A stretch of 64,000 nt of DNA, taken from contig OY970358.1 in NCBI GenBank assembly GCA_963718575.1, positions 728,108 through 792,107 of the forward strand, read 5' to 3'. Positions 8,595 through 47,424 of the stretch are shown in pieces (within the stretch, counting starts at the first letter, position 1; every line of letters starts with the position of its first letter). Origin of the DNA: an uncultured bacterium. Lineage in GTDB: Bacteria; Patescibacteriota; Minisyncoccia; UBA6257; 2-01-FULL-56-20. A model generated the notes under the pieces. It saw only the letters and a list, made by a program, of their open reading frames with translations, ran no database searches and had not been told where the DNA came from. The position numbers and the translations under genes are program-made.

Positions 8595-11543
8595 ATGAAT
8601 ACATTCATTCATCAGTTTTTCACACCCAGGCGGAGTGTGGCAAAGGGATTTCACTTTATCGTGCTCCTTGCCGCATTTGCTGTGGGCGCTTTTAGTTTTG
8701 TCGCATTCAACGGGGGAATGGTTCCTTCGGTCCCGGTTGCGCATGCGCAAACAAGTTGCTCTCTCTCGGCGAACATCTTGGGTTCGGTAAGTAATGCAAC
8801 TCCTAATGTTGGAGATACGATTACCTATACCTTCGACACCAACACTTTCGGCGGAGCGGGAGTTCCGGCATCAACTTCGGTCACCATTGTTATGGCGAGC
8901 GGTACATTGCCGACAGGACTCACGTTTATTTCCTCGTCGACTTCTGGCGGACCGTATTCTGGTACGTGGTCGGGCGGAGTGATTACTTTCACTGTTACCG
9001 CAACTGTTAATGCCACCGGAACGATCGAATATGCTCCGACCTTCCAGTATAGCGATGGAGGTCAGTGCACGGACAGTATGACTGTCGCTCAGCAACCTTC
9101 TCCGGTGACCATTATTTCAACCACTCCATCAGCCGACCTCTCGATCAGCAAGACCGCTGACGCGACCTCGACGATGGTGGGCGATACGGTGGACTACGCG
9201 ATCACGGTAAAAAATCACAGCGGTTCCACGACGTCCACGGGCGCTGTGGCAACCGATATGTTGCCTTCTCAGCTTACCTTCGAAAATGCAACGGCTTCGG
9301 CCGGCACTTCGTATGCAAGCTCGACGGGTATCTGGACGATCGGCGATCTCTCGCCGAACGCCGCTGTGACGCTCGATGTCGTCGCACTCGTGAACGCGAG
9401 CGCAAGCTCTACGATCACGAATACGGCAACGGTGTCCGCAAGCACGACGGATTCGAACCTTACGAACAACAGTTCGTCAGTGACGATCGTCGTCCTGCAG
9501 GCGCCGACGTCCACGCCGACATCGACCATCCCTTTGGCCGACCTCTCCATTAACAAGACCGTTGATGCGACGTCGACCATGATAGGTGATACGTTGCATT
9601 ACACGGTTGCGGTGACGGACAATGGTCCGGCAACCTCGACCGGCGTCGTGGCGACCGACACGTTGCCGACGAGCCTTACGTTCATGAACGCGACCGCATC
9701 GGTCGGTTCTTACGCGAGCTCGACAGGCACATGGACAATCGGCGATCTCTCGCCTAGCTCGACCGCGACGCTCGACATTGCAGCGCTCGTGAATGCGAAT
9801 GCCTCCGGCACCGTCACGAACACTGCGATCGTCGGTGAAACGGCAAGCACGACGGATAACAACCTTGGGAACAACAGTTCCACGGTGACAATCCCGGTGT
9901 TTACCTCGACCCCGACGTCCACACCGACGTCAACGCCTGTTGCTGACCTCGCGATCGTAAAGACCGCGGACGTCACTTCGACCGTGGCGGGCGGCACGAT
10001 CAACTATACGTTGACCGCGACCGCATACGGCCCTGCGACGTCGACCGGCGTCGTGGCGACGGACGTTTTGCCGAACACATTGACCTTTGTTTCAGCAACC
10101 TCTTCGGAAGGCTCCTACGCGAGCTCGACGGGGATCTGGACGATCGGCGATATGAGCGCAAGCTCGACCGCAACGTTGACCATCGCAACCGTCGTGAACA
10201 GCGGCGTTGCGAGCACGACGATCGCGAATACCGGAACAATAACGGAATCGACGAGTACGGTGAATAACAATCCGAACACGTCATCGACTGTCATCGTATT
10301 GATCCCGCCGGTTGTTTGCACGACGAACTGCGGCGGAGGTGGCGGCAATGATGCCGGCCTTACGATCACGAAGACCGTGGATGCGACGACCACCCTTCCG
10401 GGTAATGTCGTGAATTACACGATCACCGCGACCGCGAACGGCCCTCAGCCTTCGACTGGCGTCGTCGCGACCGACACGTTGCCTTCCGGACTCACGTTCG
10501 TGAATGCGACGACGTCGGCAAGCACGACCTACGCGAGCTCGACAGGCACATGGACGATCGGCACGCTTGCGCCGAACGCCACTGCGACCCTTCAGATCGC
10601 GGCGCTTGTGAACGCGAGCGATACCGCGGGCATGGTCATCACCAATCAGGCGACCATCGGCGAATCGCCGACGCTCACAAACACCAATCCGGTGACGACG
10701 GCAGAAGCGACCACGACGGTTGCGGCTGCTCCATCCACCGGGACGGACCTTCAGATCCTGAAGGCCGTCGATAACGCGAGCCCGGTCACGGGCGGTACGG
10801 TCAACTTCACGATTCTCGTGACGAACGACAGTACCGCGACGACGACGTTCGTTGTGGCGCAAGACCAGTTGCCGATCGGATTGGCATTGATCTCCGCGAC
10901 GACGACGGCGAGCACGACCTACGACATGTCGACCGGCATCTGGAACATCGGAACGCTCTCTCCGGAGGCGACGACGACCTTGACTATCGCGGCAGAAGTT
11001 TCGGCAGCGGCCGGGACTCAGGTCACAAATACCGCGACTGTGACATCGACCCTCTCATCGTTCGTTGATATAGATCCTGCGAACAACAGTTCGTCGGTGA
11101 CGCTCAACGTCCAGGCCGCTCCTTGCACGAGCAATTGCGGCGGAGGCGGTGGCGGTGGCGGCGGCGGTGGTGGAACCCCGAGCGCGCAGATCGGCATTGT
11201 GAAGACGGTGGATAACGCCGACCCGGAAACGGGCGCCATCATCCATTACACATTGACCGTGAACGCGACCGGGCCGAGCGAATCGTTCGGCGTTGTGGCA
11301 TCAGACACGTTGCCTGCGGGAATCGCCTTTGACTCAGCATCCTCTTCGGAAGGTTCCTACGCGAGCTCGACGGGGATCTGGACGATTGGTGATATGGCCG
11401 CGGGGCAAAGCGCGACCTTGGTGATCACCGCAACGGTGACCGCACCTGACGGTACGACGATCACGAACACCGGAACGGTGTCACGAATCACCGACCGTCA
11501 TCAGTCCGCTTACCGGACCCATGACATCAAGTGTAACTATTGA
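8595..11543 (+). CDS. Giant DUF11-repeat surface protein, N-terminal 983 aa (continues in the +1 frame to 11970)
   Basis: Start at MNTFIHQ...TM/signal. About seven ~130-aa repeats fit the DUF11 'conserved repeat domain' (ADLSI.KTAD.TST..GDT..Y..TV.N.G..TSTGVVATD.LP..LTF..AT.S.GSYASSTG.WTIGDLS). Repeats are separated by T/S linkers and CxxNCGGGGG poly-Gly hinges. Confidence 0.7.
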   Translation: MNTFIHQFFTPRRSVAKGFHFIVLLAAFAVGAFSFVAFNGGMVPSVPVAHAQTSCSLSANILGSVSNATPNVGDTITYTFDTNTFGGAGVPASTSVTIVMASGTLPTGLTFISSSTSGGPYSGTWSGGVITFTVTATVNATGTIEYAPTFQYSDGGQCTDSMTVAQQPSPVTIISTTPSADLSISKTADATSTMVGDTVDYAITVKNHSGSTTSTGAVATDMLPSQLTFENATASAGTSYASSTGIWTIGDLSPNAAVTLDVVALVNASASSTITNTATVSASTTDSNLTNNSSSVTIVVLQAPTSTPTSTIPLADLSINKTVDATSTMIGDTLHYTVAVTDNGPATSTGVVATDTLPTSLTFMNATASVGSYASSTGTWTIGDLSPSSTATLDIAALVNANASGTVTNTAIVGETASTTDNNLGNNSSTVTIPVFTSTPTSTPTSTPVADLAIVKTADVTSTVAGGTINYTLTATAYGPATSTGVVATDVLPNTLTFVSATSSEGSYASSTGIWTIGDMSASSTATLTIATVVNSGVASTTIANTGTITESTSTVNNNPNTSSTVIVLIPPVVCTTNCGGGGGNDAGLTITKTVDATTTLPGNVVNYTITATANGPQPSTGVVATDTLPSGLTFVNATTSASTTYASSTGTWTIGTLAPNATATLQIAALVNASDTAGMVITNQATIGESPTLTNTNPVTTAEATTTVAAAPSTGTDLQILKAVDNASPVTGGTVNFTILVTNDSTATTTFVVAQDQLPIGLALISATTTASTTYDMSTGIWNIGTLSPEATTTLTIAAEVSAAAGTQVTNTATVTSTLSSFVDIDPANNSSSVTLNVQAAPCTSNCGGGGGGGGGGGGTPSAQIGIVKTVDNADPETGAIIHYTLTVNATGPSESFGVVASDTLPAGIAFDSASSSEGSYASSTGIWTIGDMAAGQSATLVITATVTAPDGTTITNTGTVSRITDRHQSAYRTHDIKCNY

Positions 11544-12085: not shown

Positions 12086-12749
12086 ATGATGACACGTGCG
12101 AGGGAGGCTTTCAGAAATTATTTTGTCCCGCATGAGGGCAATGACAACCGGCCGCATATCCTGCGTCCGCGCACGATCGCGTTCGTGGTGGCGATCGCGC
12201 TCGTGGCGGAATCGGCGTTCGTGTTCGGCGTAAAATATATCGTTCCGCAATCGAAATTGTTCGGCATTATTGATGCGAACGTGCTCGTGGATGAGACCAA
12301 CCAGCAGCGCGTGGCGAACGGTTTGCCGGATCTTCAGGTGAGCCCGTTGCTTACAGCGGCGGCACAGGACAAGGCGAATGACGAAGCGAGCAAGGGATAT
12401 TTTGCGCATACGAGTCCGCAGGGGCTCACGCCGTGGTATTGGTTCCAGCAGGTCGGTTACAGCTTTGATTATGCCGGTGAAAATCTTGCCGTGAATTTTT
12501 CCGATTCACAGGATGTGACGGCCGCGTGGATGAACTCGCCGGAACACCGCGCGAATATTTTAAGCGCCGATTTTACGCAGATCGGCATGGCCACTGCGCA
12601 AGGCGTCTATGAAGGCCAGGAGACCACGTTCGTGGTGGAGGAATTCGGCACGCCCGCGCCGGCGGCGGCTCCCACGCCGTTCGTGGATACGGCGAGCGCG
12701 GCGACGGCGCCCGTGACAGCGCCGGCTCCTATACGCGACGCCTCCGGTG
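12086..12749 (+). CDS. CAP/SCP (YkwD-like) domain protein, N-terminal part (frame A)
   Basis: The CAP-domain block 'GYFAHTSPQGLTPWYWFQQVGYSFDYAGENLAVNF...AAWMNSPEHRANILSADFTQIGMA' follows an N-terminal TM helix. Frame A becomes Arg-rich nonsense after ~12750. Confidence 0.7.
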
Positions 12750-24360: not shown

Positions 24361-24372
24361 CAGTGAAAAATA

Positions 24373-24555: not shown

Positions 24556-26049
24556 ATGAAAAGGCTCTTGAAACCTCGCGTGTTAGGGGATGTTTCCGTC
24601 CAAAAGGCAAACGGTCGGAGCTGGAGCTCGTTCGGTCCGCTCGCGGCGCGCGTCAATTTGGTGGAGGAACGGATCATCCGCATCCCGCTCACGAAGACGT
24701 TGCGGTTTGCAATCATCGCCACGGCGGCGATTTTTTTGGTGTTCGGTTCCGCACTCGCGCCGACGCTTTTTAGTAAAGCTTCCGGCGATGCGTCGTCGAG
24801 CACGACGCCCACGAGCACCGATCCCACCGCCGAGCGCAGCCAGCTGGAAGGCCAGCTTGCCCAGCTTGAGATGCAGATCAATCAATATCAGGGGCAGATC
24901 CAAAGCTATCAGACGCAGGGAAAATCTTTGAACGGTGAAATTGATATTTTGAATGACAAGATCGCATCGCTCAATCTGCAGATCCAGGCGACAGGTCTTA
25001 CGCTCACGCAACTGAACACGCAGATCGCCGATAATCAGACTGAGATCACAAACCTCCAGGCGGAGATCGTCGATAAGCAGACCGCGATGACGGCGTTGAT
25101 GCAAGATCTTTATAAGAATGATCAGACGAGTCTTATTCAAGCGGTTTTGCAAAACCCCCAACTTTCTGATTTTTGGGACGATACGCAGGATCTGACCCTG
25201 CTCCAGAGCAGTCTGCGACTGACGGTCCAGCAGATCACGAGCCTTCAGACGCAGTTGCAAGATCAAGAGCAGGAATTCATAGCGTCAAAATCCGATGCGG
25301 CGAGCGTGGCGGCATATCAGGCGGCGCAGACGCAGGAGGTGGCGAGCACGGTGACGCAAAAGACCCAGCTCCTCGCCGCGACACAAGGACAGGAATCGAA
25401 GTATCAGGCGTTGCTCGTTTCGACGCAGGCGTCCGCCGCGCAGATCCGCGACCGCATCTTCCAATTGCTCGGCGGCGGCCAGCTCTCCTTTGGCGATGCG
25501 TATCAATATGCGCAGCTCGCGTCGAATGCGACCGGTATCGATCCGGCATTCATCCTTGCGATCCTCGACCGCGAATCGGCGCTCGGGCAGAATGTCGGCC
25601 AGTGCGATTATCAGACCGCGATGAACCCGGCCGACCAGCCGCTCTTTTTGAACATCGTGCAATCGCTCAATCTCAATCCAAGCACGATGACGGTTTCATG
25701 CCCGAACGCGGATGGTGCGTATGGCGGCGCGATGGGTCCCGCGCAGTTCGAGCCGTCGACGTGGGACGAATATTCGACGGCGGTTGCGGCGATCACAAAG
25801 GACAATCCGCCTTCGCCGTGGAACAATTCCGATGCGTTTGTGGCGACGGCGTTGTATTTGAAGGATAATATGACGGGATGCCAGGCGGTCTATAGCGCGG
25901 TATTGAGTCAGGAACGGTGTACGGCGGCAAAGTACTATGCGGGCGGTGATTGGAAGAATTACCTTTGGACGTACGGCGAGGCGGTTGTGGAGCAGACGCA
26001 GGGCTTCTCATCCGACATCCAGACGATCACAAACGGCAGTAATACATAA
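24556..26049 (+). CDS. Membrane-anchored coiled-coil protein with C-terminal lytic-transglycosylase-like (SLT-type) domain
   Basis: TM helix, a long Q-rich coiled coil (CwlO/PcsB-like architecture), then 'ILAILDRESALGQNVGQC...AYGGAMGPAQFEPSTW', which resembles an SLT catalytic E-S...Q...P(S/A)T block. Confidence 0.55.
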   Translation: MKRLLKPRVLGDVSVQKANGRSWSSFGPLAARVNLVEERIIRIPLTKTLRFAIIATAAIFLVFGSALAPTLFSKASGDASSSTTPTSTDPTAERSQLEGQLAQLEMQINQYQGQIQSYQTQGKSLNGEIDILNDKIASLNLQIQATGLTLTQLNTQIADNQTEITNLQAEIVDKQTAMTALMQDLYKNDQTSLIQAVLQNPQLSDFWDDTQDLTLLQSSLRLTVQQITSLQTQLQDQEQEFIASKSDAASVAAYQAAQTQEVASTVTQKTQLLAATQGQESKYQALLVSTQASAAQIRDRIFQLLGGGQLSFGDAYQYAQLASNATGIDPAFILAILDRESALGQNVGQCDYQTAMNPADQPLFLNIVQSLNLNPSTMTVSCPNADGAYGGAMGPAQFEPSTWDEYSTAVAAITKDNPPSPWNNSDAFVATALYLKDNMTGCQAVYSAVLSQERCTAAKYYAGGDWKNYLWTYGEAVVEQTQGFSSDIQTITNGSNT

Positions 26050-26059
26050 TTAAAAGATC

Positions 26060-27337
26060 ATGAAAAAAATTATCTTAAAAAACGGGTTGCGCATATTGCT
26101 CGTTCCCCAGCCGGCGAATCTTGCCGCCACGGTCCTTATTTTAGTGAAGGCGGGATCGGAATATGAATTGAAGGCTCAGAACGGCGTTTCGCATTTTTTG
26201 GAACACATGATGTTCAAAGGCACGACCGACCGACCCGAACCGGGGATGATCGCGCATGAGCTGACCGCGCTTGGCGCGCAGTTCAACGCGTTTACCGGCG
26301 AGGAATATACCGGCTATTACGCAAAGGTGCAGGCGGAAAAACTGTCGAAGATTTTAGAGATCGTTTCCGACCTGTACCTCAATCCGTTGTTTGATGAGGC
26401 CGAGATCGAAAAGGAGCGCGGCGTGATCATCCAGGAGATCAATATGTACGAGGATGATCTTCCGGCGCGCGCGGCGCGGGACTTCTCGCGGCTCGTGTAC
26501 GGCGATCAGCCCGCGGGATGGGACGTCGGCGGCGAGATCCCGATCATCAAGCGGCTCACTCGCGCCGAATTCGTTGCGTACCGCGCGCGCCGGTATGTGA
26601 TGCCGGGGACGGTCGTCGTCGTTGCGGGAAAGTTCGGCACCGCAAGCGCGAGCGCGCAGATCAAAAAGTATTTCGGCAAACTCCCACGCCGCACGGCGCC
26701 GGCAAAGAAGAAGACAACCGAACAGCAATCGTCGCCGAAGATCTCACTGCACTTCAAGGAGTCCGATCAGGCGCATCTGGTGCTCGGATTTCGCGCGTTC
26801 AACATGTTCGATAAGCGGCGCTATGCGGCGCGAGTGCTCGCCGATATGCTCGGCGGGGGAATGAGCTCAAGGCTCTTCACGCGCATCCGCGAGAAGATGG
26901 GCGCGGCGTATTATATCGGCGCCGGCACGGACCTCTCACTCGATCATGGGCTACTTTCGATTTCCGCGGGCGTCGACCGGTCAAAGATCGAACCGGTGAT
27001 CACCGCCATCCTCGAGGAGTGCGCAGCGCTTCGCGATGAAGCAGTCACAGAAAAGGAATTGCAAAAGACGAAGGATCACATGATCGGCGGCCTGGTGCTT
27101 GGGCTTGAGACATCCGATGACCTCGCGAGCTTTCATGGCAGTCAGGAAGTGCTGACCGGAGGCACCACGCCGCCGGCGGTGCTCGCCGCGCGGATAAAAA
27201 AAGTGACCGCGCGCGATGTGCAGGCCGTGGCGAAGGCGATCTTCAAGGACGCTGGACTGAATCTTGCTATTGTCGGTCCGTATAAAGAGCAAGCGCGATT
27301 TAAGAAGATTCTCCGGTTGCCAAAGCGCGGTAAATAA
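26060..27337 (+). CDS. Peptidase M16 family (insulinase-like) protein
   Basis: Inverted zinc motif HFLEHMMFKGT and a downstream EE...E block. Confidence 0.8.
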   Translation: MKKIILKNGLRILLVPQPANLAATVLILVKAGSEYELKAQNGVSHFLEHMMFKGTTDRPEPGMIAHELTALGAQFNAFTGEEYTGYYAKVQAEKLSKILEIVSDLYLNPLFDEAEIEKERGVIIQEINMYEDDLPARAARDFSRLVYGDQPAGWDVGGEIPIIKRLTRAEFVAYRARRYVMPGTVVVVAGKFGTASASAQIKKYFGKLPRRTAPAKKKTTEQQSSPKISLHFKESDQAHLVLGFRAFNMFDKRRYAARVLADMLGGGMSSRLFTRIREKMGAAYYIGAGTDLSLDHGLLSISAGVDRSKIEPVITAILEECAALRDEAVTEKELQKTKDHMIGGLVLGLETSDDLASFHGSQEVLTGGTTPPAVLAARIKKVTARDVQAVAKAIFKDAGLNLAIVGPYKEQARFKKILRLPKRGK

Positions 27338-27352
27338 TAGTAGGCTATTGCA

Positions 27353-28798
27353 ATGGACTCACGAGACGAATTCTACATCACGACCCCGATCTATTATGTG
27401 AACGACAAGCCGCATATCGGCCATGCGTATTCGACGATCGTCGCCGACACGCTCGCGCGATGGCGCGAGGCGCGCGGGGAACACGTGGTGTTCTCGACGG
27501 GCGTCGATGAGAACTCGCAGAAGACGGTGGACGCCGCAAAGAAGAACGACGAAGAAATTCACGCGTACGTGGACCGGCTCGCCGACGTCTGGGCAACGAC
27601 GTGGTCAAAGCTTGGCATCTCAAACACGGATTTTATCCGCACCACCGAAGAGCGGCACATCGAAGTCGTTAAAGACATCTGGGGCCGCATGGAAGCCGCT
27701 GGCGATATTTATAAAGGCGAATATCAGGGATTGTATTGCAAGGGGCACGAGGCGTTCATGAAGGAAGACGAGCTGACGCCCGACGGCCTTTGCCCGGACC
27801 ACAAAGTGGCGCCGGAGCTCGTCACCGAGGAAAATTATTTCTTCCGGCTTTCTAACTATCAACAGAAGCTTTTGGATTTTTACGAAACGCACGACGAGTT
27901 TGTGGCACCCGCGCATCGGTTCAACGAAGTGCGCGCGTTCGTGGAGAATGGTCTAGAAGACATCAGCTTCTCGCGCGAAAAAAAGGAGTGGGGAATCCCG
28001 GTGCCAAATGATCCGAATCAGGTGATCTACGTATGGGCGGATGCGCTCGTCAACTATATTTCCGTCGTCGGCGTTGAGGGATGGGAAGAGCATCCGGCGG
28101 ATGTGCACGCAGTGGGCAAGGATATTTTGCGCTTCCACGCCGTGATCTGGCCGGCGATGTTGATGTCTGCCGGTTTGCCACTGCCCGGACAGGTGATCGC
28201 GAACGGATTCTTTACGATCGATGGCACGAAGATCTCGAAATCGCTTGGCAATGCAATTGATCCGCTTGAACTCACCGCGCGCTATGGCAATGACGGCCTG
28301 CGCTATTTCTTGCTTCGCGAAATTTCCTACGGTGAAGACGGTGATTTTTCGGAGGAGAAAATGAAGGAACGGTACAACGCGGACTTAGCGAACGGGCTTG
28401 GCAACTTTGCCGCCCGGGTGCTCACGCTTGCAGAGAAGGAGACATTATCCACGTCGGGCGCCGTGCTCGACGGCGATTTCGATATCACGATCGAAACGAT
28501 GAAACGCTTGGTCTACGCAAAGTTAAAAGAATATAAATTCCCCGAGGCGCTCGGCGCAATCTGGGCTACAATCTCGTTTGGCGATCGCTATGTGAACGAC
28601 CGCAAGGTGTGGGAGATAAAAGACGGCGCGACGCGTGCGGTTGCGCTGTTCAACCTGGTGTCACTACTCAATGCCGTTGCGACCGAGCTTGTGCCGTTCT
28701 TGCCGGAGACATCGCGCAAGATCAAAGCAGCGATCGTGCACGAAGACGGCGCGTTGAAGACGAAGAAGCCGGAGATTCTTTTCCCGAGGATAAAATAA
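27353..28798 (+). CDS. metG: Methionyl-tRNA synthetase (short form, no C-terminal tRNA-binding domain)
   Basis: HIGH motif (PHIGHAYS) and KMSKS motif (KISKSLGN); the anticodon-binding domain follows. Confidence 0.95.
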   Translation: MDSRDEFYITTPIYYVNDKPHIGHAYSTIVADTLARWREARGEHVVFSTGVDENSQKTVDAAKKNDEEIHAYVDRLADVWATTWSKLGISNTDFIRTTEERHIEVVKDIWGRMEAAGDIYKGEYQGLYCKGHEAFMKEDELTPDGLCPDHKVAPELVTEENYFFRLSNYQQKLLDFYETHDEFVAPAHRFNEVRAFVENGLEDISFSREKKEWGIPVPNDPNQVIYVWADALVNYISVVGVEGWEEHPADVHAVGKDILRFHAVIWPAMLMSAGLPLPGQVIANGFFTIDGTKISKSLGNAIDPLELTARYGNDGLRYFLLREISYGEDGDFSEEKMKERYNADLANGLGNFAARVLTLAEKETLSTSGAVLDGDFDITIETMKRLVYAKLKEYKFPEALGAIWATISFGDRYVNDRKVWEIKDGATRAVALFNLVSLLNAVATELVPFLPETSRKIKAAIVHEDGALKTKKPEILFPRIK

Positions 28799-28806
28799 TT
28801 TATCAA

Positions 28807-29463
28807 ATGGACAAGCACCAAATTATTAATAAAACGAAGGTTCATCTCAAAGCCGAATTTGGCAAAGAGGGAACTGGTCATGATTGGTGGCATATTGAGA
28901 GAGTGTTAAATAATGCGATTACTATCGCCAAGAAAGAAAAAAGTGCAGATATTTTTATTGTTCAGCTTGGTGCGCTTTTGCATGATGTCGCGGATTTTAA
29001 ATTCCATGGCGGTGACGATACTATCGGTGGCAAAGTTGCGGCGCAATGGCTCAAAAAAATTAGTACAGATGCAGTCACAATTCAGAAGGTAGTCCATATC
29101 GTGGACAATGTTTCTTTTAAAGGGCTCGGTGTGAAGTCGAAAATGGAAAGTCTCGAAGGAAAAATAGTGCAGGATGCCGACAGACTTGATGCTATCGGCG
29201 CGCTAGGCATTGCCCGGGCATTTGCATATGGTGGTTATAAAGAGAGGCCGATTTATAATCCTGAGGTGGCTCCGAAAATGCATAATAATTTCTCCTCCTA
29301 TAAGAAAGGATCCGATTCGACTATCAATCACTTCTATGAAAAAATTCTTTATGTAAAGAATTTGATGAATACAAAAGCCGGGAAGAAAATGGCCCTACAG
29401 AGGCATAAGTTTATTGAAGTTTATCTCAAGGAATTCTATGCAGAGTGGGAGGGATTAAAATAA
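28807..29463 (+). CDS. HD-domain phosphohydrolase
   Basis: 'WHIERVL...LHDVADFK...QDADRLDAIGALGIAR' is the HD motif set. Starts 9 nt after the metG stop. Confidence 0.8.
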   Translation: MDKHQIINKTKVHLKAEFGKEGTGHDWWHIERVLNNAITIAKKEKSADIFIVQLGALLHDVADFKFHGGDDTIGGKVAAQWLKKISTDAVTIQKVVHIVDNVSFKGLGVKSKMESLEGKIVQDADRLDAIGALGIARAFAYGGYKERPIYNPEVAPKMHNNFSSYKKGSDSTINHFYEKILYVKNLMNTKAGKKMALQRHKFIEVYLKEFYAEWEGLK

Positions 29464-29480
29464 AGATGTAGCGTATTTAT

Positions 29481-30077
29481 CTACCTTCCCGCCTGATCAA
29501 ATAGATTCTCGTAGACGCGGTTGATGTCGCGCTTAAAGTGTTCGATGTCGTCATAGTTATTCTCGAGCGTGATCTCGGCGCGGGAGCCGATGTCGGGAAT
29601 ATCCACTTCGGTGCGCACTTTTTCCTGCCGGGAAAAATCTTCCCATGTGGTTGCGGCTTCGCCCACGCGGTTACGCGAGATAAGCCGCGCGTAGCGCACC
29701 TTCGGGTCGGCGGTGAGGTACACGAAGACGGATTTGATGCCGTCGTCGTTCAAGCCGCGGATCATCTTCTCGTCGCCAAGCCAGCGGACGCCGTCGAGGA
29801 TCGCCACGTCGGCGTCGTCGCTCATCAGCCGCCGCCGCATCGCCCGCGAGAGCGCTCCGTCGTGGAAGCCCGTCTCTGCGTTCATCACGATCGCCATTTT
29901 TTGCAGATTGTCGCGCGTGTGCGGGATGTCCCACAGGGTGAGCGTGTCCCGGAGGATATCCGAGAACGTGTGGCGGCTCACGCGATAGCCGTCCTCGACG
30001 AGCAGCTGGTCAAGCACATTCGCGCAGGTTTCCTTCCCGGCGAGCGGAGCCCCGATGATACCGATGACGAGTTTCAT
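29481..30077 (-). CDS. P-loop nucleotide/nucleoside kinase-like protein
   Basis: Walker A motif IGIIGAPLAGKET at the N-terminus. Similar in size to the dephospho-CoA-kinase / adenylate-kinase fold. The exact substrate is unknown. Confidence 0.5.
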   Translation of the reverse strand: MKLVIGIIGAPLAGKETCANVLDQLLVEDGYRVSRHTFSDILRDTLTLWDIPHTRDNLQKMAIVMNAETGFHDGALSRAMRRRLMSDDADVAILDGVRWLGDEKMIRGLNDDGIKSVFVYLTADPKVRYARLISRNRVGEAATTWEDFSRQEKVRTEVDIPDIGSRAEITLENNYDDIEHFKRDINRVYENLFDQAGR

Positions 30078-30094
30078 GGTGAATGGTGACGGGG

Positions 30095-30490
30095 TTATTT
30101 TCCTTTTTGCCGATAGATTTTCTTGATCTTCCAATAAAGCGGATCGCGGCCGGAGCCCGCTCCCGTCGTCGCATTCTTTTTCATGAGCTTTGCGGGATAC
30201 TTCTTTTCCGCGCGAGCAAGTTTTTCAAAAATGATTTTTTCTGTGCCCAGGCCAAGGAGGACGGCAATTTCCAGCGCATAAATAAGCACGTCGGCGAGCT
30301 CCTTTTCTATCTCCGCAAGTTTTTCCTTATCTTTCTTGACTTCCTCAAGCGAAAGATTTTCCCACTGGAAAAGTTCCAAAAGCTCTCCGCCTTCAATCAT
30401 GACCGACTTTGCGAGATCCGCCGGACGGAGCTGGTCCCAGCCGCGATCTTTAAGGAATTTGTGGACCCTCTTTTCGGCGCGTGAGTTCAT
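30095..30490 (-). CDS. MazG-like nucleotide pyrophosphohydrolase
   Basis: EGGELLE...EE...EKELADVLIY pattern of the all-alpha NTP-PPase (MazG) fold. Confidence 0.65.
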   Translation of the reverse strand: MNSRAEKRVHKFLKDRGWDQLRPADLAKSVMIEGGELLELFQWENLSLEEVKKDKEKLAEIEKELADVLIYALEIAVLLGLGTEKIIFEKLARAEKKYPAKLMKKNATTGAGSGRDPLYWKIKKIYRQKGK

Positions 30491-30549
30491 ACATTGGTAT
30501 TGTAACAAAAAAGTGCCGCATCCGGATAATTTCGGATGCGGCATGGTGG

Positions 30550-31194
30550 CTAATTGCGGCTGGTGCGGTAGATGCGCATAGTGTCCGTGAGCAAGCTGAT
30601 CACATGATTAGGCTTTGCTGCGTGGATGTACTCCGGAGAGCTTGTACCCTCCGTGAATCCCATGGTAAAGACCCCCGTCTTTTGCGCTTCCATAATTCCG
30701 CTTGCCGAATCATCCACGTAGAACGCGTTACGCGGCGGTACCTTATATCGCTCGAGGAATTCGAGGATCGCTAGCCCTTTATTGTTGGCTCCAAAGCGCA
30801 CATCGTTGAAAAGATGAAGGATATCGAATTTTCTCAGGAGTTCGATTGTGCTTTCCGGCGCGGCGCTGAGCATCACCATGAGAAGACCCTGTTCGCAGAA
30901 GTAGTTCAGGGTTTGTGCAGCTCCTCTGTGGAGGTGCATATCTCCACGGATCTTATTGTAGTGGATTTCCCATGCTGCGTAGATAGCTTCCCTGGTATAT
31001 TGCCTTGGAACGCCATGCGCGTAGTAGAACTCGGCCATGGTTTCCGCAGAGCATCCCTCCCGATACTCGCGGAGCGTGGGAATGCGAGGATTGGGTGCGA
31101 GTTCTTTGATAGTCTCAACGGTGGCGGTGTATGTCGCCTCCAGGTCGTTGAAAACCGTCCCATTCCAGTCAAAAAAACCCAGTTTGTATCGCAT
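30550..31194 (-). CDS. HAD-superfamily hydrolase
   Basis: Motif I FDWNGTV (DxDGT-like), a conserved S/T motif, and a C-terminal DD motif. Confidence 0.7.
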   Translation of the reverse strand: MRYKLGFFDWNGTVFNDLEATYTATVETIKELAPNPRIPTLREYREGCSAETMAEFYYAHGVPRQYTREAIYAAWEIHYNKIRGDMHLHRGAAQTLNYFCEQGLLMVMLSAAPESTIELLRKFDILHLFNDVRFGANNKGLAILEFLERYKVPPRNAFYVDDSASGIMEAQKTGVFTMGFTEGTSSPEYIHAAKPNHVISLLTDTMRIYRTSRN

Positions 31195-31256
31195 TAGCCC
31201 TCCTCTGGCAAGCGAAAAGTGAAAACAGCTGCCCGTATGATAAGATAGTTCTATCC

Positions 31257-32150
31257 ATGAAACAAGACCTTGCCGGTAATCTGCATTTCTTCGACGCTCA
31301 TACGCATGTGCAGTTTTCCGGCTTCGCCGCCGACCGCGACGCGGTCATTCAACGCGCACGCGAAGCAAATGTGTGGATGATCAACGTCGGCACGCAAAAG
31401 GACACCTCGCGCGCGGCGGTGGAACTTGCGCGAAAATATTCCGGGGCCGGCGGCGGTATGTATGCGGCGGTCGGACTTCATCCGGTGCACACGAGCGCGT
31501 CGTTCCACGATGCGCAGGAGCTCGGCGGCGGGGAAGCGGCAACGGCGTTCACCTCGCGCGGCGAGGCGTTCGACGCGGATTATTATCGCTCGCTCGCGCT
31601 CGATCCGCTCACGGTCGCGATCGGCGAATGCGGCCTCGACTATTTCCATTTCAATGATGATGAGGCGCGCGAGGTGCAGGTAGAAAAACAGAAAGCGGCA
31701 TTTTTGGCGCAGATCGAGCTTTCGAAAGATGTTAAAAAACCATTAATGATCCATTGTCGGAACGCATTTGCGGACCTTATCGAATTTTTGCGGCCACACG
31801 CGCATGAGCTTCCGCCGAGCGTCGTCCACTTCTTTACCGGCACGCCTGATGATGCGCGGGCATTGCTCGAGCTTGGATTCTCGTTTACCTTTGGCGGCGC
31901 GATCACGTTCCCGCCGCGGAAGGGGATGGCGCAGGGCGCATATGATGAAGTGATCTCACGTATCCCGCTCGACCGGATACTGTCCGAGACCGATGCGCCG
32001 TACGTGGCGCCCGCAGCGTTTCGCGGAAAGCGCAACGAGCCGGCGTATGTTGTGTACGCCGTGTCGCGGCTTGCTGAACTTAAACACGTTTCGCCGGACG
32101 AGATGAAGGCGCAGATTTGGGCGAACGCAAAGCGGATTTTTAGCATCTAG
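31257..32150 (+). CDS. TatD-family metal-dependent hydrolase
   Basis: FDAHTH..., GLHPV, IGECGLDYF, and a C-terminal ETDAPY block typical of TatD. Confidence 0.8.
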   Translation: MKQDLAGNLHFFDAHTHVQFSGFAADRDAVIQRAREANVWMINVGTQKDTSRAAVELARKYSGAGGGMYAAVGLHPVHTSASFHDAQELGGGEAATAFTSRGEAFDADYYRSLALDPLTVAIGECGLDYFHFNDDEAREVQVEKQKAAFLAQIELSKDVKKPLMIHCRNAFADLIEFLRPHAHELPPSVVHFFTGTPDDARALLELGFSFTFGGAITFPPRKGMAQGAYDEVISRIPLDRILSETDAPYVAPAAFRGKRNEPAYVVYAVSRLAELKHVSPDEMKAQIWANAKRIFSI

Positions 32151-32276
32151 AAGTATATTAAAAAAGCATTAAATTTTATTTGACGAAAATATCGAATCAA
32201 TTACTATCGAACTATGTCCGTGGGGCGTCGGCAATTCCTGCCCCGGCTCGGCTTTCAGGCTGACAGCGGGCATGAT

Positions 32277-32307
32277 CAAAAGACCCATTCGTTGAATGGG
32301 TCTTTTG
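32277..32307. terminator. Hairpin (caaaagaccca-ttcgttgaa-tgggtcttttg) downstream of the minus-strand small ORF
   Basis: 11-bp stem with an embedded T-run; could terminate the 32311..32577 (-) transcript. Confidence 0.4.
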
Positions 32308-32310
32308 CGG

Positions 32311-32577
32311 CTAATACACACTAAAGAAATACTTTTTCCCGTTAATTTCTTTCGACAATCTCCAAAATTCAGCATTATTTGACGGATCCTCGATAATCTC
32401 TTTCACAAAAGGCAGCGGTGCAAAATGCCGTTCCTTTTCTGCTTTGGTGCGCGGGATGCCTCGTTTTCTAAGAAGATGTTGAAATCCGAGACGGTTGAAA
32501 GTGATACATTCTTTTAGTACCTGACACCATGTTTCTCCGATGTTTTCATATAATTTCTTTGGGTTTTCATTTTCCAT
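32311..32577 (-). CDS. Hypothetical small protein (AT-rich)
   Basis: 88-aa ORF in a lower-GC patch upstream of leuS; no confident family. Confidence 0.35.
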   Translation of the reverse strand: MENENPKKLYENIGETWCQVLKECITFNRLGFQHLLRKRGIPRTKAEKERHFAPLPFVKEIIEDPSNNAEFWRLSKEINGKKYFFSVY

Positions 32578-32657
32578 CCAGCCGCCATAACAAGTGGGTC
32601 ATTAAATCTATTTAAAATGGACTATTTCCTTGCTGCGCCGTAGAATAAGTATTATCT

Positions 32658-35116
32658 ATGACTTCCTACGACCCCAAGAGCATCGAAGAAAAGTGGAATA
32701 AAAAATGGCTGGCCGACAAGGTTTTCAAGGCCGCCGACGATTCCGCGAAGCCGAAATATTATCAGCTCGAGACGTTCCCGTATCCGTCCGCGGCGGGATT
32801 GCATATGGGTCATCCAAAAGGCTATACCGCCGAGGATATCCACGCGCGCTACATGCGCATGCGCGGCCGCGAAGTGCTTTACACGATGGGTTGGGATGCC
32901 TTCGGACTCCCGACGGAGAATTATGCCATCAAGGTAGGGAAGCCGCCGAAGGAAGTTGCGCTCGCGAATACGGATAACTTCCGTCGTCAGGTGCAGATGT
33001 TCGGGTTCTCGTACGACTGGGATCGGGAGATCGACACATCCTCGCCGGAATATTATAAGTGGACGCAGTGGCTGTTCCTCCAGCTTCTATAAAAAAGGGT
33101 TGGCGTATCGCAAGGAAGCAAAAGTGAACTGGTGTCCGAAGGATCAGACCGTGCTTGCGAACGAGCAGGTGGTTGACGGTAAGTGCGAGCGGTGCGGCAG
33201 TGAGATCGAGGAGCGCATGATGGAGCAGTGGTTCTTGAAGATCACCGATTATGCGGATCGTTTGCTCGCCGACCTGAAAGGCCTCGACTGGCCCTCGGCG
33301 ACGGTCAAACGCCAGGAGGATTGGATCGGAAAGAGCGAAGGGGCGGAAATTTCGTTCCTTCTCGATTTCAAAAAAAATCCGGCGGACAACGATCGTCGCG
33401 GACCGGATGGCGAGCGCGCCGCGCTGACCGTATTCACGACGCGTCCGGATACGCTCTTCGGCGCCACGTATTTGGTGCTCGCGCCGGAGCATCCGTGGGT
33501 CACGCTCGCGCTCGATGACCAGCACGACGTGTTATTAAATAAAGATGAAGTGAAGGCATATGCAGAAGCGACATCGCACAAGACCGACCGCATGCGTCAG
33601 GAGGATGTAAAAGACAAGACCGGCGTCGAGCTGAAGGGCGTGATGGCGATCAACCCGGCAACGAAGGAGGAAATTCCGATCTGGGTTGCGGACTACGTAC
33701 TCGGCTCGTATGGCACCGGCGCGATCATGGCGGTGCCCGCACACGACGAGCGCGATTTTGATTTTGCGAAGAAGTTCGGATTGCCGATAAAAAGAGTGAT
33801 TGCCGGCGAAGGTGAATTTTCAACCGGCTATGGCGTGTTGATCGATTCCGGAACGTTTACCGGTATGGATTCCGAAAAGGCAAAAGCGGAAATCACAAAG
33901 TTTGCCGGCGGGAAATTAAAGACACAATACAAGATCCGCGACTGGTCCGTGTCGCGCCAGCGGTATTGGGGAGTGCCGATCCCGATGATTCACTGTCTAA
34001 AGGATGGCATCGTGCCGGTGCCGGAAAAGGATCTGCCCGTGGTCCTGCCCGACCTCGAGAACTATCGTCCGCAGGGGATGCCGCCGCTCGCGAGTTCGCC
34101 GGCCTTCATCAACGTAAAGTGCCCTCAGTGCGGCGGCGATGCCAAGCGCGATGCGGAGACGCTCGATACATTCGTGGATTCATCGTGGTACTTCTTACGC
34201 TATCCGGATCCGCACAACGCGGCGGAAATTTTTGGCAAGGAAAAAGTGGAGCACTGGATGCCGGTGGATATCTATGTGATCGGCGCGGAGCACACCGTTC
34301 TCCACTTACTCTACTCGCGCTTTGTCACAAAATTCCTGCATGACGAAGGATATTTCTCATTTACCGAACCGTTCGCGAAGCTTCGGCATCAAGGACTCAT
34401 CATGCGGCACCGACGGCGCGAAGATGTCCAAGAGCCGCGGCAACGTGGTGAACCCGGATGAGATCGTCGCCGAGTTCGGCACCGATGCGACCCGCATGTA
34501 TTTGATGTTCATGGGGCCGTTCGAGGACGGCGCGCCGTGGGATGTAAAAGGAATTTTGGGGGTGGAGCGTTTTTTGAAGCGATTTTGGAAATATTGCGGT
34601 GGTGCTTTGGAAAAATCGTCCGACGCACCCGAACAATCTTCCGCGCGCGCTACTCTCCATCGCACCATCAAAAAGGTGGGGGAGGACATCGAGGCGTTCA
34701 AATTCAACACCGCGATCTCGGCGCTTATGATACTCTTAAATGAGCTGGAGGCGTCCGCGCCGCTCGCGAAGGAAGATGCCGTGGCGTTGGTGAAGATCAT
34801 CCATCCGTTTGCGCCGCACATGGCACAGGAATTGTGGTCGCTCATGGGCAACGCGAATTATCTGGATTTCGAGCCGTGGCCGGCGTATGATCCGGCGCTC
34901 ATTGCGCAAGAGAAGATCACGATCGTGTTTCAGGTGAACGGAAAGACAAAAGACAATGTGGCGGTGGATGCTACGATAGAAGAGGCTGATGCAAAGGAAA
35001 TGGCGCTCGCGAATGAAAAAGTGAAGGCGGCGCTCGCGGCAGGCGGCCTGGCAGCGGGTGCGCCGCCGAAGCGCATTATCTACGTGGATAAAAAACTAGT
35101 GAACATCGTCATTTAA
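32658..35116 (+). CDS. leuS: Leucyl-tRNA synthetase, interrupted by two apparent +1 frameshifts (~33087 and ~34407)
   Basis: Three consecutive ORFs (32658..33092, 32956..34461, 34322..35116) together give an uninterrupted LeuS. The first junction is ...WTQWLFLQL|YKKGLAYRKEAKVNWCP.... The second is ...FAKLRHQGLIM|GTDGAKMSKSRGNVVNPDE... (the KMSKS motif). Each junction shows one extra C. Confidence 0.85.
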
Positions 35117-36049
35117 ATGGGAGCAAGGATCTGGCTTATCATCATTATCATCATCGGGCTCGGACTCGGGCTGTATCTCTATAGTTCCGGTGCGTTTGTA
35201 AATGGGGTAAAAGGATTCGATTCGCTGATCGATACGAGCTCTACCTTCTCGCTCTTTAATCTTGGTTCTTCCACGATCGCGCGCGGACCGTCGGCGCCCA
35301 TCGGGCCGCCCCCGCCCCAGGGAACGACGATCGCGCCGCCGCCAGCCTCCGTCACGACGACCACCATTAACCCCGCCGACATTCCGGCCGGGTACACTGC
35401 CGCAGAGCTTTCGCCATACTTCCATCAAATACTCTTGGGGAGCGTTTCCGCCGGCACGTCGTACTATTACGGCACGATCACGCTGAACTCATATTTCAAT
35501 ACCACCGGCACGATCGATATCACGGGATGGCAGATAAAGACGATGGACAGCGGCGAATACATCCCGCAGGCGATCGACGTATATGACCCGTCCGGACTCA
35601 CCCCGGCGAGCGATATCCTCGTAAAGAACGGGGATACGGTGTATCTCTATTCGTCATCCGCACCGTTCAATGTGCGATTGAACGAGTGTATCGGATATAT
35701 CGCGCAGGTCGCGAACTTCGATCCGCCGTTGCCGGATTCGTGCCCTTATATTGACCCGTCGCAAATTCAGAACTTTACCGGCCAGTGCCAGAATTATATC
35801 GAGACGCTCGGCCAGTGCCAATCGCCGAACATGTCGAGCCCGCAGATCCCGCGCACCGATTATGCATGCCAGGATTATCTGGAGAATAATTTCACTTACA
35901 AATCATGCTTTGATGAGCACGACAGCGATCCGAATTTCCTGAGCAATCAGGTATGGGTGTGGACCGGCAGCAATGTCGTTGACCAGTATCACGATACCGT
36001 AAAACTGCTCGATCGGAACGGACTGCTGGTAGATTTGTACACCTATTAA
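35117..36049 (+). CDS. Secreted/membrane-anchored protein with lamin-tail-like (LTD) beta domain (hypothetical)
   Basis: N-terminal TM, a Pro-rich linker, then 'IDITGWQIKTMDSGEYIPQAIDVYDPSG...GDTVYLYSS', which resembles an LTD; Cys-rich C-terminus. Confidence 0.45.
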   Translation: MGARIWLIIIIIIGLGLGLYLYSSGAFVNGVKGFDSLIDTSSTFSLFNLGSSTIARGPSAPIGPPPPQGTTIAPPPASVTTTTINPADIPAGYTAAELSPYFHQILLGSVSAGTSYYYGTITLNSYFNTTGTIDITGWQIKTMDSGEYIPQAIDVYDPSGLTPASDILVKNGDTVYLYSSSAPFNVRLNECIGYIAQVANFDPPLPDSCPYIDPSQIQNFTGQCQNYIETLGQCQSPNMSSPQIPRTDYACQDYLENNFTYKSCFDEHDSDPNFLSNQVWVWTGSNVVDQYHDTVKLLDRNGLLVDLYTY

Positions 36050-36123
36050 CTAACAGCAAATAAGAAGCCCACACCGTTTCGCTCCAGCGTAAGAACGCCC
36101 ACTCGCTCAACGGTGTGGGCTTC

Positions 36124-37140
36124 TTATTTGCGCTCGGTCAAGGAGGCCTTTGCGGGGAATTGTTTACCGTCGCGAAGGACAAGTAATTCCACCTCGTCGC
36201 CGACATTCGAATTTTCGAGGAAATCCTGAATGGGATGGTCGTGATCGAGCTTCTTCCCGTTTATCTCCAAAACAATATCCTTTTCCTTGATCCCTGCCTT
36301 TTCTGCCGGACTGTCGGGGACGACCGCCGCGTCGCGTTCACTCTCGTTCGTGACGAGCGCGCCGTAATTCACGGATAAATTCATCTTTTTCTTGAGCGTA
36401 TCATCGATCATCACGTAGCGAAGTCCGAGGAGCGGCCGGCGGATGCGGCCGTATTTCTTGATGTCGTCGATGTCGCGCCGCGCGGCGTTCACCGGGATCG
36501 CGAAGCCGATGCTCTGCGCGCCGGAAACGATCGCGGCGTTCACGCCGACGACGCATCCGTCGCGGTCCACGATCGGGCCGCCGGAGTTGCCGGGATTGAT
36601 CGCGGCGTCGGTCTGGATGAGGCCGCGCATTTCCTGTGGCGGCGCGTTCCGCTCGGCTTGCGCCGTGATCGAGCGTGAGAGTCCGGAGACGATGCCGACG
36701 GAAACGGTGTTGCGGAAGATGCCGAGCGCGTTGCCGATCGCGATGAGCGACTGGCCAAGTTCGAGCTTTGTGGCGTCGCCGAGGCGCACGCAGGGGAGTC
36801 TATCCACCGGGATCTTCAATATAGCGACGTCATTGATCGGGTCGCGGCTTAAGATGGTGGCGGGGAATGCGCGGCCGTCGCTCAAAATAACGGTGTACTC
36901 GGCTTTGCGCTCGCTCACTACGTGCTTGTTCGTGAGGATCAAGCCATTCGATGCCACAATGAATCCCGATCCGCCGCCGGTCTGCACCATGCCGCGATCG
37001 TCCACTGTGCCGTCCGGGATCGTCGGATTGAATCCCTTTGGGAACTGCTTTTGCAGGTCCTCGAACTTCTCCGCGATGGCAATTGAAACCACCGAAGGCA
37101 TGACTTTCTTGATGACCTTAATGACGCGTTTATCGTCCAT
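36124..37140 (-). CDS. htrA: HtrA/DegP-family serine protease (trypsin-like plus PDZ)
   Basis: GSGFIV...NKHVV, D..ILKI, GNSGGPIV catalytic triad context, and a C-terminal PDZ domain. Confidence 0.9.
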   Translation of the reverse strand: MDDKRVIKVIKKVMPSVVSIAIAEKFEDLQKQFPKGFNPTIPDGTVDDRGMVQTGGGSGFIVASNGLILTNKHVVSERKAEYTVILSDGRAFPATILSRDPINDVAILKIPVDRLPCVRLGDATKLELGQSLIAIGNALGIFRNTVSVGIVSGLSRSITAQAERNAPPQEMRGLIQTDAAINPGNSGGPIVDRDGCVVGVNAAIVSGAQSIGFAIPVNAARRDIDDIKKYGRIRRPLLGLRYVMIDDTLKKKMNLSVNYGALVTNESERDAAVVPDSPAEKAGIKEKDIVLEINGKKLDHDHPIQDFLENSNVGDEVELLVLRDGKQFPAKASLTERK

Positions 37141-37167
37141 GGGATTATTCTAACATGAAAACATGGA

Positions 37168-38058
37168 TTATCTCACAAACCTCACGTAGATTCCGGACGG
37201 CACTACGCGGTCGGAACCTTTCTCGCTTACTCGCAGTTCCCCGAAATCGCCGCTCTCAATAGTGTCGAACGAACTCTCCACGGCTTGCACGAGCGATTGC
37301 GGCGCATAGCCTGCGGCATAGCCGTTCAATAAAAAGAACGAGCCGGGCTTTTGTGAAAAGATTTTTTTGACGGCGTCGAGCAGGGGACCAATATCTTCCT
37401 CGATTTTCCACACTTCGCCATCCGGTCCGCGGCCGAATGCGGGAGGATCGAGGATGATGCCATCATACATGGAGCCGCGCCGGGCTTCGCGTTCCACAAA
37501 TTTGAGCGCGTCATCGGTGATGTAGCGTAGTGAGTCGGGCGGCACTTGCGAGAGCGTGGCGTTCTCTTTTGCCCACGTGTTGCTTTGTTTGGATGCGTCC
37601 AGGTGCGTCACCATTGCGCCGTGCTTTGCGGCTACGATACTCGCGATGCCGGTGTAGCCGAAGAGGTTTAATACCTTTGGCTTATCTTCATCGCCGCCAC
37701 GCTTTGCGAGCGTGCCCGCTTTTTCGCCGATCCATTTCCAGTTTGGCGCCTGTTCCGGAAAAACGCCGGTATGCTTGAACGACGTCAAGCGTAACGTGAA
37801 TCGCGCATCACTGTTCCAGGTGATATCCCACGTTTCCGCGCCGCCTTCGTTTTTAGAATGCCATGATCCCTTTCCGCCATCAAAGATGAACTCCGCATGT
37901 GCGGTTTTCCATGATTCCGGATGAAGCGGTTTCCATATCGCCTGCGTTTCCGGGCGGATCAAAACGAACGGCCCAAACCGCTCAAGTTTTTTATTATTGC
38001 CCGAGTCGAGGAGTTCGTAATCCGGCCAGCCGTCCGTTGCGAGATCGATGTGATTCAT
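37168..38058 (-). CDS. Class I SAM-dependent rRNA methyltransferase (RlmI/RlmK-like)
   Basis: VLNLFGYTGIASI... and DGIILDPPAFGRG motifs. Confidence 0.7.
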   Translation of the reverse strand: MNHIDLATDGWPDYELLDSGNNKKLERFGPFVLIRPETQAIWKPLHPESWKTAHAEFIFDGGKGSWHSKNEGGAETWDITWNSDARFTLRLTSFKHTGVFPEQAPNWKWIGEKAGTLAKRGGDEDKPKVLNLFGYTGIASIVAAKHGAMVTHLDASKQSNTWAKENATLSQVPPDSLRYITDDALKFVEREARRGSMYDGIILDPPAFGRGPDGEVWKIEEDIGPLLDAVKKIFSQKPGSFFLLNGYAAGYAPQSLVQAVESSFDTIESGDFGELRVSEKGSDRVVPSGIYVRFVR

Positions 38059-38067
38059 ATATGTGGA

Positions 38068-47422: not shown

Positions 47423-47424
47423 CC

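What the first reader, a model, noticed from the sequence alone, without database searches (positions are those of the whole stretch)
32658..35116. leuS split into three ORFs by two +1 frameshifts
An essential aminoacyl-tRNA synthetase needs two +1 shifts to be read: at ~33087 ('cag ctt [c]ta taa' versus expected ...LQL|YKKGLAYRKEA...) and at ~34407 ('atc atg [c]ggc acc' versus ...GLIM|GTDGAKMSKSRGN...). Each junction shows a single extra C outside a homopolymer. This is either an assembly/consensus insertion error or genuine pseudogenisation, and the latter is unlikely for leuS.
Basis: seen in the sequence. Interest (0 to 1): 0.5.

Follow-up and report, generated by a model that had tools for sequence, protein, structure and literature searches.

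The report
leuS frameshifts are assembly insertion errors
The leucyl-tRNA synthetase gene of this uncultured Paceibacterota (CPR) bacterium is broken into three pieces only in this one long-contig assembly; independent assemblies of the same species read straight through, so the breaks are almost certainly consensus errors and the finding is ordinary.

Summary
leuS (32658-35116, + strand) is read in three successive frames, and removing one base at each junction restores an 818-aa LeuRS that aligns without gaps to 45 homologs.

- Seven independent contigs of the same species (98.0-99.95% identical, most of them short-read assemblies from several projects) cross one or both junctions. None has the extra base, and one carries an uninterrupted 818-aa leuS.
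- The frameshifted fragments are on record from a single 881,652-bp contig, the window's source.
- Across 52.9 kb of window covered by conspecific contigs there are exactly four window-private indels. All four are +1 insertions inside genes and outside homopolymers. Two are in leuS and two break unrelated genes (~11481, ~12734).
- At both leuS junctions the window looks like a merge of two intact alleles seen in related populations: CTC/TTC gives CTTC, and ATG/CGC gives ATGC. This is what a consensus collapsed over mixed strains produces.

No feature of programmed frameshifting or of a naturally split LeuRS is present. Interest is low: this is a data-quality flag for the assembly.

The parts
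32658..33092 (+). leuS fragment 1 (aa 1-142 of LeuRS, including the HIGH-type motif HMGH, then one wrong residue and TAA)
   Evidence: ORF. TIGR00396 profile positions 1-139, E=2e-60. On record as P0124 from the 881,652-bp contig only.
33084..33087 (+). Junction 1: window CTTC where conspecific contigs have TTC (Phe) and the more distant L081 has CTC (Leu); one extra base
   Evidence: This is the only gap in 3.6-8.2 kb alignments with L082, L083 and L084, and one of two gaps in the 8.5 kb alignment with L085. Homologs have Leu at this position in 44 of 45 sequences.
33088..34461 (+). leuS fragment 2 (frame +1; CP1 editing domain and most of the catalytic core), ending in an 18-codon out-of-frame tail after 34404
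   Evidence: TIGR00396 profile positions 140-576, E=7e-169. The gene call on record, P0122 (445 aa, starting at GTG 33124), carries the same out-of-frame tail MRHRRREDVQEPRQRGEPG.
34402..34405 (+). Junction 2: window ATGC where conspecific contigs have CGC (Arg) and L081 has ATG (Met); one extra base
   Evidence: L085, L086 and L087 all read ATC CGC GGC; L081 reads ATC ATG GGC. Homologs have M in 23, R in 12 and L in 10 of 45 sequences.
34406..35116 (+). leuS fragment 3 (frame +2; KMSKS loop, anticodon-binding and C-terminal domains)
   Evidence: TIGR00396 profile positions 604-842, E=9e-56. The gene call on record, P0123 (230 aa), starts at the M of KMSKS.
11481..11481 (+). Same class of defect elsewhere: extra T (GGTG[T]CACG) splits a 1124-aa gene into ORFs 8529-11543 and 11521-11970
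   Evidence: L092 lacks the base and has one 1124-aa ORF. The 149-aa piece is on record only from the 881,652-bp contig.
12734..12734 (+). Same class of defect elsewhere: extra C (CTATA[C]GCGAC) splits a 358-aa CAP-domain gene into ORFs 12086-12988 and 12747-13163
   Evidence: L092 lacks the base and has one 358-aa ORF. The intact 358-aa form, P0129, is on record from 2 contigs.

Best explanation
The two extra bases in leuS are consensus (assembly or polishing) insertion errors in one long-contig metagenome assembly. They are not features of the organism, whose leuS is a normal single 818-aa gene. The most likely cause (inferred, not shown) is that the sample held two closely related haplotypes differing at exactly these codons: CTC or TTC at codon 143, and ATG or CGC at codon 582. 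Reads of the second haplotype aligned with small shifts, and the consensus step kept bases from both, giving CTTC and ATGC. The same assembly carries at least two more isolated +1 insertions in other genes.
For: 1. Independent assemblies lack the insertions. L082, L083 and L084 are 99.89-99.95% identical to the window over 3.6-8.2 kb, and their only gap is the junction 1 base. L085, L086 and L087 lack the junction 2 base, and L085 also lacks the junction 1 base and encodes an uninterrupted 818-aa LeuRS. These contigs come from at least five different samples in JGI, ENA and Logan.
2. The frameshifted fragments P0124, P0122 and P0123 are each on record from one contig only, of 881,652 bp. One search found no other contig encoding the 144-aa fragment.
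3. The defect is assembly-wide. In 52.9 kb covered by conspecific contigs there are exactly four window-private indels, all +1 insertions in coding sequence with no deletions. Two of them break unrelated genes.
4. Both leuS junctions coincide with codons that differ between related lineages, and the window's 4-base string is a superposition of the two intact alleles. Junction 2 lies in a tract with 5 substitutions in 300 nt, against about 0.06% window-private substitutions overall.
5. Purifying selection acts on all three segments, each in its own LeuRS frame. Substitutions against L081 fall on codon position 3 in 13/16, 46/66 and 30/44 cases.
6. This is the only leuS copy in the window, and leuS is essential (established knowledge).
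7. The mechanism is documented. Nearby allelic variants shift read alignments and introduce indel errors in collapsed assemblies (PMC8445201). The closest catalogued relatives are Nanopore-only Flye plus one round of Medaka MAGs (PMC12313526). Residual indels in such assemblies cause frameshifted gene calls (PMC9262707).
Against: No reads were available, so the extra bases were not shown directly to lack read support. The errors are not the classic homopolymer type: all 228 homopolymer runs of 5 nt or more in the covered 52.9 kb agree with the short-read contigs, so plain platform noise is not a sufficient explanation. The haplotype-merge mechanism rests on allele comparison for the two leuS sites only. 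The other two sites are covered by a single contig (L092), and no second allele is known there. None of the four possible repaired 818-aa versions of the window haplotype is on record, so the intact form of exactly this haplotype has not been seen. L081, the source of the CTC and ATG alleles, is itself a noisy assembly with 117 indels in 12.9 kb, though Leu143 and Met582 are also the commonest residues in 45 homologs.
Confidence: 0.88

Rival explanations
1. The insertions are genuine mutations of the sequenced strain, so leuS and two other genes are real, very recent pseudogenes in a decaying or non-viable lineage.
For: The assembly is otherwise accurate: it has no homopolymer discrepancies and is 99.9% identical to short-read contigs, so the four insertions are not obviously noise. 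The window haplotype is distinct, with 30 private substitution sites. No intact copy of exactly this haplotype is on record.
Against: leuS is single-copy in the window and essential, so two frameshifts in the majority genotype of a population abundant enough to assemble into an 881-kb contig would be lethal. There are four frameshifts against only about 30 substitutions relative to intact conspecifics, all insertions and none deletions, which is an unlikely natural spectrum. Both leuS events sit exactly on strain-variable codons and reproduce bases of the alternative allele, which real random insertions would not do. No other assembly has them.
Confidence: 0.08
2. The gene is expressed despite the frameshifts, either by two programmed +1 ribosomal frameshifts (or quadruplet decoding) or as a three-piece split LeuRS that reassembles, in the way the two-subunit LeuRS of Aquifex aeolicus does.
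For: Junction 1 has a stop codon two codons downstream (CTT CTA TAA). Junction 2 lies just upstream of KMSKS, roughly where, from memory, the Aquifex enzyme is split. All four insertions in the window can be placed at codon boundaries, which would happen by chance about once in 81 times.
Against: Recoding sites are conserved among orthologs, yet conspecifics at 99.9% identity and 45 homologs have no shift. The four sites share no slippery motif, and junction 2 has no stop or obvious pause codon for 18 codons. The six tRNAs in the window are ordinary. Fragments 2 and 3 have no in-frame start at the junctions: the recorded gene calls start at GTG 33124, losing 12 conserved residues, and at the M inside KMSKS. 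The other two affected genes are unrelated surface or secreted-type proteins.
Confidence: 0.02

Closest known systems
Indel errors in collapsed (mixed-haplotype) long-read consensus assemblies, giving apparent frameshifts
   Same: These are isolated indels that truncate ORFs. They lie at or next to sites where co-assembled alleles differ, and they disappear in haplotype-resolved or independent assemblies (PMC8445201). Here both leuS junctions lie on allele-variable codons and the window string merges both alleles.
   Different: The documented case is a diploid eukaryote assembled from PacBio reads. Here the setting is a strain mixture in a metagenome. The mixture itself was inferred from other assemblies, not seen in reads of the source sample.
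Residual indels in Nanopore-only metagenome-assembled genomes (Flye plus Medaka)
   Same: A near-complete CPR genome in a single 881-kb contig. Its closest catalogued relatives are MFD Nanopore-only MAGs (PMC12313526). Frameshifted gene calls are the known consequence of such indels (PMC9262707).
   Different: The classic errors are homopolymer-length errors. Here all 228 homopolymer runs of 5 nt or more that were checked are correct, and all four errors are non-homopolymer insertions. The sequencing platform of the source was not established.
Bacterial-type leucyl-tRNA synthetase (LeuS, TIGR00396)
   Same: The repaired protein is a full-length LeuRS with HMGH and KMSKS motifs, a CP1 editing domain and an anticodon-binding domain, 75-82% identical to Paceibacterota LeuRS.
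   Different: As deposited it is in three frames. Like its close relatives, it lacks the segment matching profile positions 577-603, between the catalytic core and KMSKS.
Programmed +1 frameshifting (prfB type) and the naturally split two-subunit LeuRS of Aquifex aeolicus
   Same: Only superficial likeness: a +1 shift near a stop codon at junction 1, and a break just before KMSKS at junction 2.
   Different: There is no conservation in orthologs or conspecifics, no slippery or Shine-Dalgarno-like context, and no start codons for separate subunits.

Membership tests
Bacterial LeuRS (TIGR00396 leuS_bact) | Full-length match to the equivalog model above its cut-off (548.4 bits) | tested here: met
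   The three fragments match profile positions 1-139, 140-576 and 604-842 with 204.7, 563.7 and 189.5 bits. Fragment 2 alone exceeds the cut-off.
Bacterial LeuRS (TIGR00396 leuS_bact) | Class I signature motifs HIGH and KMSKS present and in register with homologs | tested here: met
   HMGH is in fragment 1 and KMSKS in fragment 3. The repaired protein aligns without gaps to 45 homologs around both junctions.
Assembly/consensus indel artefact | The indel is absent from independent assemblies of the same population | tested here: met
   The junction 1 base is absent in L082-L085 and the junction 2 base is absent in L085-L087. The frameshifted products are on record from one contig only.
Assembly/consensus indel artefact | The same error class occurs elsewhere in the same assembly | tested here: met
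   Two further window-private +1 insertions at ~11481 and ~12734 break other genes. In total there are 4 insertions and 0 deletions in 52.9 kb.
Assembly/consensus indel artefact | Raw reads do not support the extra base | not testable with these tools
   No read data were available.
Programmed +1 ribosomal frameshift | The shift site is conserved in orthologs or close relatives | tested here: not met
   Conspecific contigs at 99.3-99.95% identity and 45 homologs are in a single frame.
Programmed +1 ribosomal frameshift | A slippery P-site codon with a stop or rare codon in the A site at the shift point | tested here: not met
   At junction 1 the stop is two codons after the required shift point. 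At junction 2 there is no stop for 18 codons. The four sites share no motif.
Naturally split LeuRS (Aquifex type) | Separate subunit genes, each with its own start codon and together retaining all conserved residues | tested here: not met
   There is no in-frame start at either junction. The recorded gene calls start at GTG 33124, losing YKKGLAYRKEAK, and at the M inside KMSKS.
Genuine pseudogene | Relaxed constraint or further lesions in the gene | tested here: inconclusive
   Apart from the two extra bases, the window carries the family-consensus or ancestral residues at the variable sites. The third-position bias against L081 reflects long-term constraint and cannot date a very recent inactivation.

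The most novel reading that the evidence does not exclude
The extra bases are genuine in the dominant genotype of this CPR bacterium, and LeuRS, along with two other proteins, is still made. This would happen either through efficient +1 recoding at non-canonical sites where the extra nucleotide sits at a codon boundary, or as a three-fragment enzyme.
Probability: 0.02. Interest if true: 0.75.

Novelty: not a real feature. Interest (0 to 1): 0.06.

Why it matters
It matters mainly for data quality. This 881-kb single-contig CPR genome carries about one spurious +1 insertion per 13 kb in the region checked, so gene-loss or pseudogene calls from it should not be trusted without read-level checks or re-polishing. 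That includes an apparent loss of an essential aminoacyl-tRNA synthetase, which could be misread as symbiont genome reduction. The case also shows that in otherwise accurate long-read MAGs, the residual frameshifts may concentrate at strain-variable codons rather than in homopolymers.

Tried and rejected
1. Other overlapping same-strand ORF pairs were tested with Pfam as possible split genes (27353/28609, 53218/53933, 57094/57119, 58727/59817/60731, 41970/42239/42597, 39806/40336, 29538/30083, 17355/17804). They are separate genes or spurious ORFs, not frameshifts.
2. A genome-contig scan with the repaired LeuRS did not return the source genome. The best species representatives are 75-82% identical.
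3. Exact look-ups of leuS fragment 1, the HtrA-like neighbour and the FtsX-like gene in the contig index found nothing.
4. A metagenome scan with a pattern accepting 3- or 4-base versions of junction 2 returned only the already known L086. It gave no independent copy of the frameshifted form and no intact ATG-allele conspecific.
5. An exact look-up of the four possible repaired 818-aa haplotypes found none on record.
6. I tested whether the domain insertions seen in relatives' LeuRS (NUDIX, Ham1, alpha/beta-hydrolase) coincide with the frameshift sites. They do not: they sit at about aa 243-255 and 383-390, against 143 and 582.
7. I looked for unusual tRNAs that could decode quadruplets and found none in the window.
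8. I looked for a common sequence or methylation-type motif at the four insertion sites and found none (by eye).

Full report
**Observation**

On the + strand, three ORFs occupy successive frames: 32658-33092, 32956-34461 and 34322-35116. They match the bacterial LeuRS equivalog model TIGR00396 over profile positions 1-139, 140-576 and 604-842. Removing one base at each junction gives a continuous 818-aa protein. That protein is 75-82% identical over its full length to intact LeuRS of Paceibacterota/Parcubacteria (CPR) bacteria and aligns without gaps to 45 homologs across both junctions. tblastn finds no second leuS in the window. The only corrections concern the exact base: the junction 1 extra base lies within 33084-33087, and the junction 2 extra base within 34402-34405.

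**Independent assemblies of the same organism**

The exact products of intact neighbouring genes were looked up in public assemblies. This returned 27 contigs from JGI, ENA and Logan samples that are 98.0-100% identical to the window (most above 99.8%). It also returned L081, a noisier long-read contig that is 96% identical and has 117 indels in 12.9 kb.

- L082, L083 and L084 are 99.89-99.95% identical to the window over 3.6-8.2 kb. Their single gap is the junction 1 base.
- L085, L086 and L087 cross junction 2 and lack the extra base there.
- L085 crosses both junctions and carries an uninterrupted 818-aa leuS with six amino-acid differences from the repaired window protein.
- An exact-sequence look-up shows that the frameshifted fragments (144, 445 and 230 aa) are each on record from one contig only, an 881,652-bp NCBI/ENA contig. 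The 445-aa product carries the same out-of-frame tail as the window, so this contig is the window's source.

**The defect is not specific to leuS**

Conspecific contigs cover 52.9 kb of the window (5919-25062, 25257-40022, 44983-64000). Counting only indels on which every covering contig disagrees with the window leaves exactly four. All four are single-base insertions in the window, inside coding sequence and outside homopolymers:

- ~11481 (GGTG[T]CACG), which splits a 1124-aa gene into 1004 + 149 aa;
- ~12734 (CTATA[C]GCGAC), which splits a 358-aa CAP-domain gene into 300 + 138 aa;
- the two leuS junctions.

There are no window-private deletions. All 228 homopolymer runs of 5-8 nt in the covered sequence agree with the short-read contigs. 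The assembly is thus accurate in general but carries a particular class of isolated insertion.

**What the junctions look like**

| Junction | Window | Nearest conspecifics | L081 |
|---|---|---|---|
| 1 | CAG CTTC TAT | CAG TTC TAT (Q-F-Y) | CAG CTC TAT (Q-L-Y) |
| 2 | ATC ATGC GGC | ATC CGC GGC (I-R-G) | ATC ATG GGC (I-M-G) |

In both cases the window's four bases are a superposition of two intact alleles that exist in related populations. Leu143 and Met582 are also the commonest residues among 45 homologs.

Junction 2 lies in a 300-nt tract (34144-34439) with five substitutions between the window and L085-L087. The window-private substitution density overall is about 0.06% (30 sites in 52.9 kb). 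A random insertion has roughly a 0.3% chance of landing within 2 nt of one of those sites (my arithmetic). The coincidence therefore points to a link between strain variation and the insertions.

The simplest link is a consensus built over a mixture of haplotypes. This artefact has been described for collapsed assemblies: nearby allelic variants shift read alignments and introduce indel errors that truncate ORFs (PMC8445201). The closest catalogued relatives of this genome are Microflora Danica MAGs, which were assembled from Nanopore reads only with Flye and one round of Medaka (PMC12313526). Residual indels in such assemblies are a known cause of frameshifted gene calls (PMC9262707). That the window's source was produced in this way is an inference from its single 881-kb contig and its relatives; it was not shown.

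**Is the gene under selection?**

Substitutions between the window and L081 fall mainly on the third codon position in each segment's own LeuRS frame: 13/16, 46/66 and 30/44. At the sites where the window differs from L085, the window carries the residues shared with L081 and with most homologs. Apart from the two extra bases, nothing suggests decay.

**Rivals**

- **Genuine pseudogenisation.** This would require the majority genotype of an abundant population to carry two frameshifts in a single-copy essential gene. It also requires four frameshifts, all insertions, against about 30 substitutions, with two of them placed exactly on variable codons. I give it about 8%.
- **Programmed +1 frameshifting or a three-piece LeuRS.** This is contradicted by the absence of the shifts in conspecifics and homologs, and by the lack of any shared slippery context. 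It is also contradicted by ordinary tRNAs and by the lack of start codons at the junctions. I give it about 2%. The one oddity in its favour is that all four insertions can be placed at codon boundaries (about 1 in 81 by chance). The merge model also predicts an excess at codon boundaries, because most strain variants lie at third or first codon positions.

**What could not be done**

No reads were available, so the decisive test (read support at the four sites) remains open. The intact form of exactly the window's haplotype was not found. The two non-leuS sites are covered by a single contig, so a second allele there is unknown.

**Verdict**

The feature is real in the deposited sequence but almost certainly not in the organism. 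It is an assembly-quality flag with low scientific interest.

Noticed in passing
window ~11481 and ~12734: Two further genes are broken by isolated +1 insertions of the same kind. They are a 1124-aa protein with a poly-Gly run and a 358-aa CAP-domain protein. Both are intact in L092.
   Followed up: yes
window 34144-34439 (leuS codons 496-594) compared with L085, L086 and L087: Five nonsynonymous and no synonymous differences occur within 300 nt between the window haplotype and the L085-type haplotype (K496E, E531K, H561Y, M582R, G594S). G594S sits next to KMSKS at a position that is Gly in 45 of 45 homologs. Three of the five (H561Y, M582R, G594S) are seen in all three independent contigs; K496E and E531K are covered by L085 only. 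The L085 type appears to be the derived one. This could be a recombined tract or selection on the KMSKS loop.
   Followed up: partly
relatives' proteins P0001, P0006, P0009-P0011, P0019, P0021, P0036, P0093 (not in the window): Many Paceibacterota LeuRS carry extra domains inserted inside the enzyme. A NUDIX domain sits at about aa 383-390 of the window numbering, and a Ham1/ITPase or alpha/beta-hydrolase domain at about aa 243-255, flanking the CP1 editing domain. Some proteins have two insertions and reach about 1130-1180 aa. The window's LeuRS has none.
   Followed up: partly
L081 (ENA ERZ25039484 contig_71755) and L100 (JGI 3300077762 Ga0645788_1680): These other long contigs of this lineage are much noisier. 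L081 has 117 indels in 12.9 kb, with leuS and the HtrA-like gene shattered into many ORFs. L100 has a patch of 8 gap openings (9 gapped positions) in 1.9 kb. Frameshift artefacts seem common in long-read assemblies of this population.
   Followed up: partly
window 40801-43782: This is a loose cluster of five tRNA genes (Ser-TGA, Ala-GGC, Arg-CCT, Ser-CGA, Thr-CGT). The long ORFs 41970-42335 and 42239-42682 on the minus strand overlap tRNA-Ser (42246-42333) and have no Pfam hit, so they are probably spurious.
   Followed up: partly
window 32311-32577 (minus strand): An 88-aa ORF between tatD and leuS is called as a gene in conspecific contigs (L083, L085). No domain hit is recorded for that gene in the conspecific contigs, and I did not scan it myself. 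Its function is unknown.
   Followed up: no
window 34390-34425 (leuS): This LeuRS and its close relatives lack the segment between the catalytic core and KMSKS (TIGR00396 profile positions 577-603 are unmatched). From memory, this region corresponds to the leucine-specific domain of E. coli-type enzymes.
   Followed up: no
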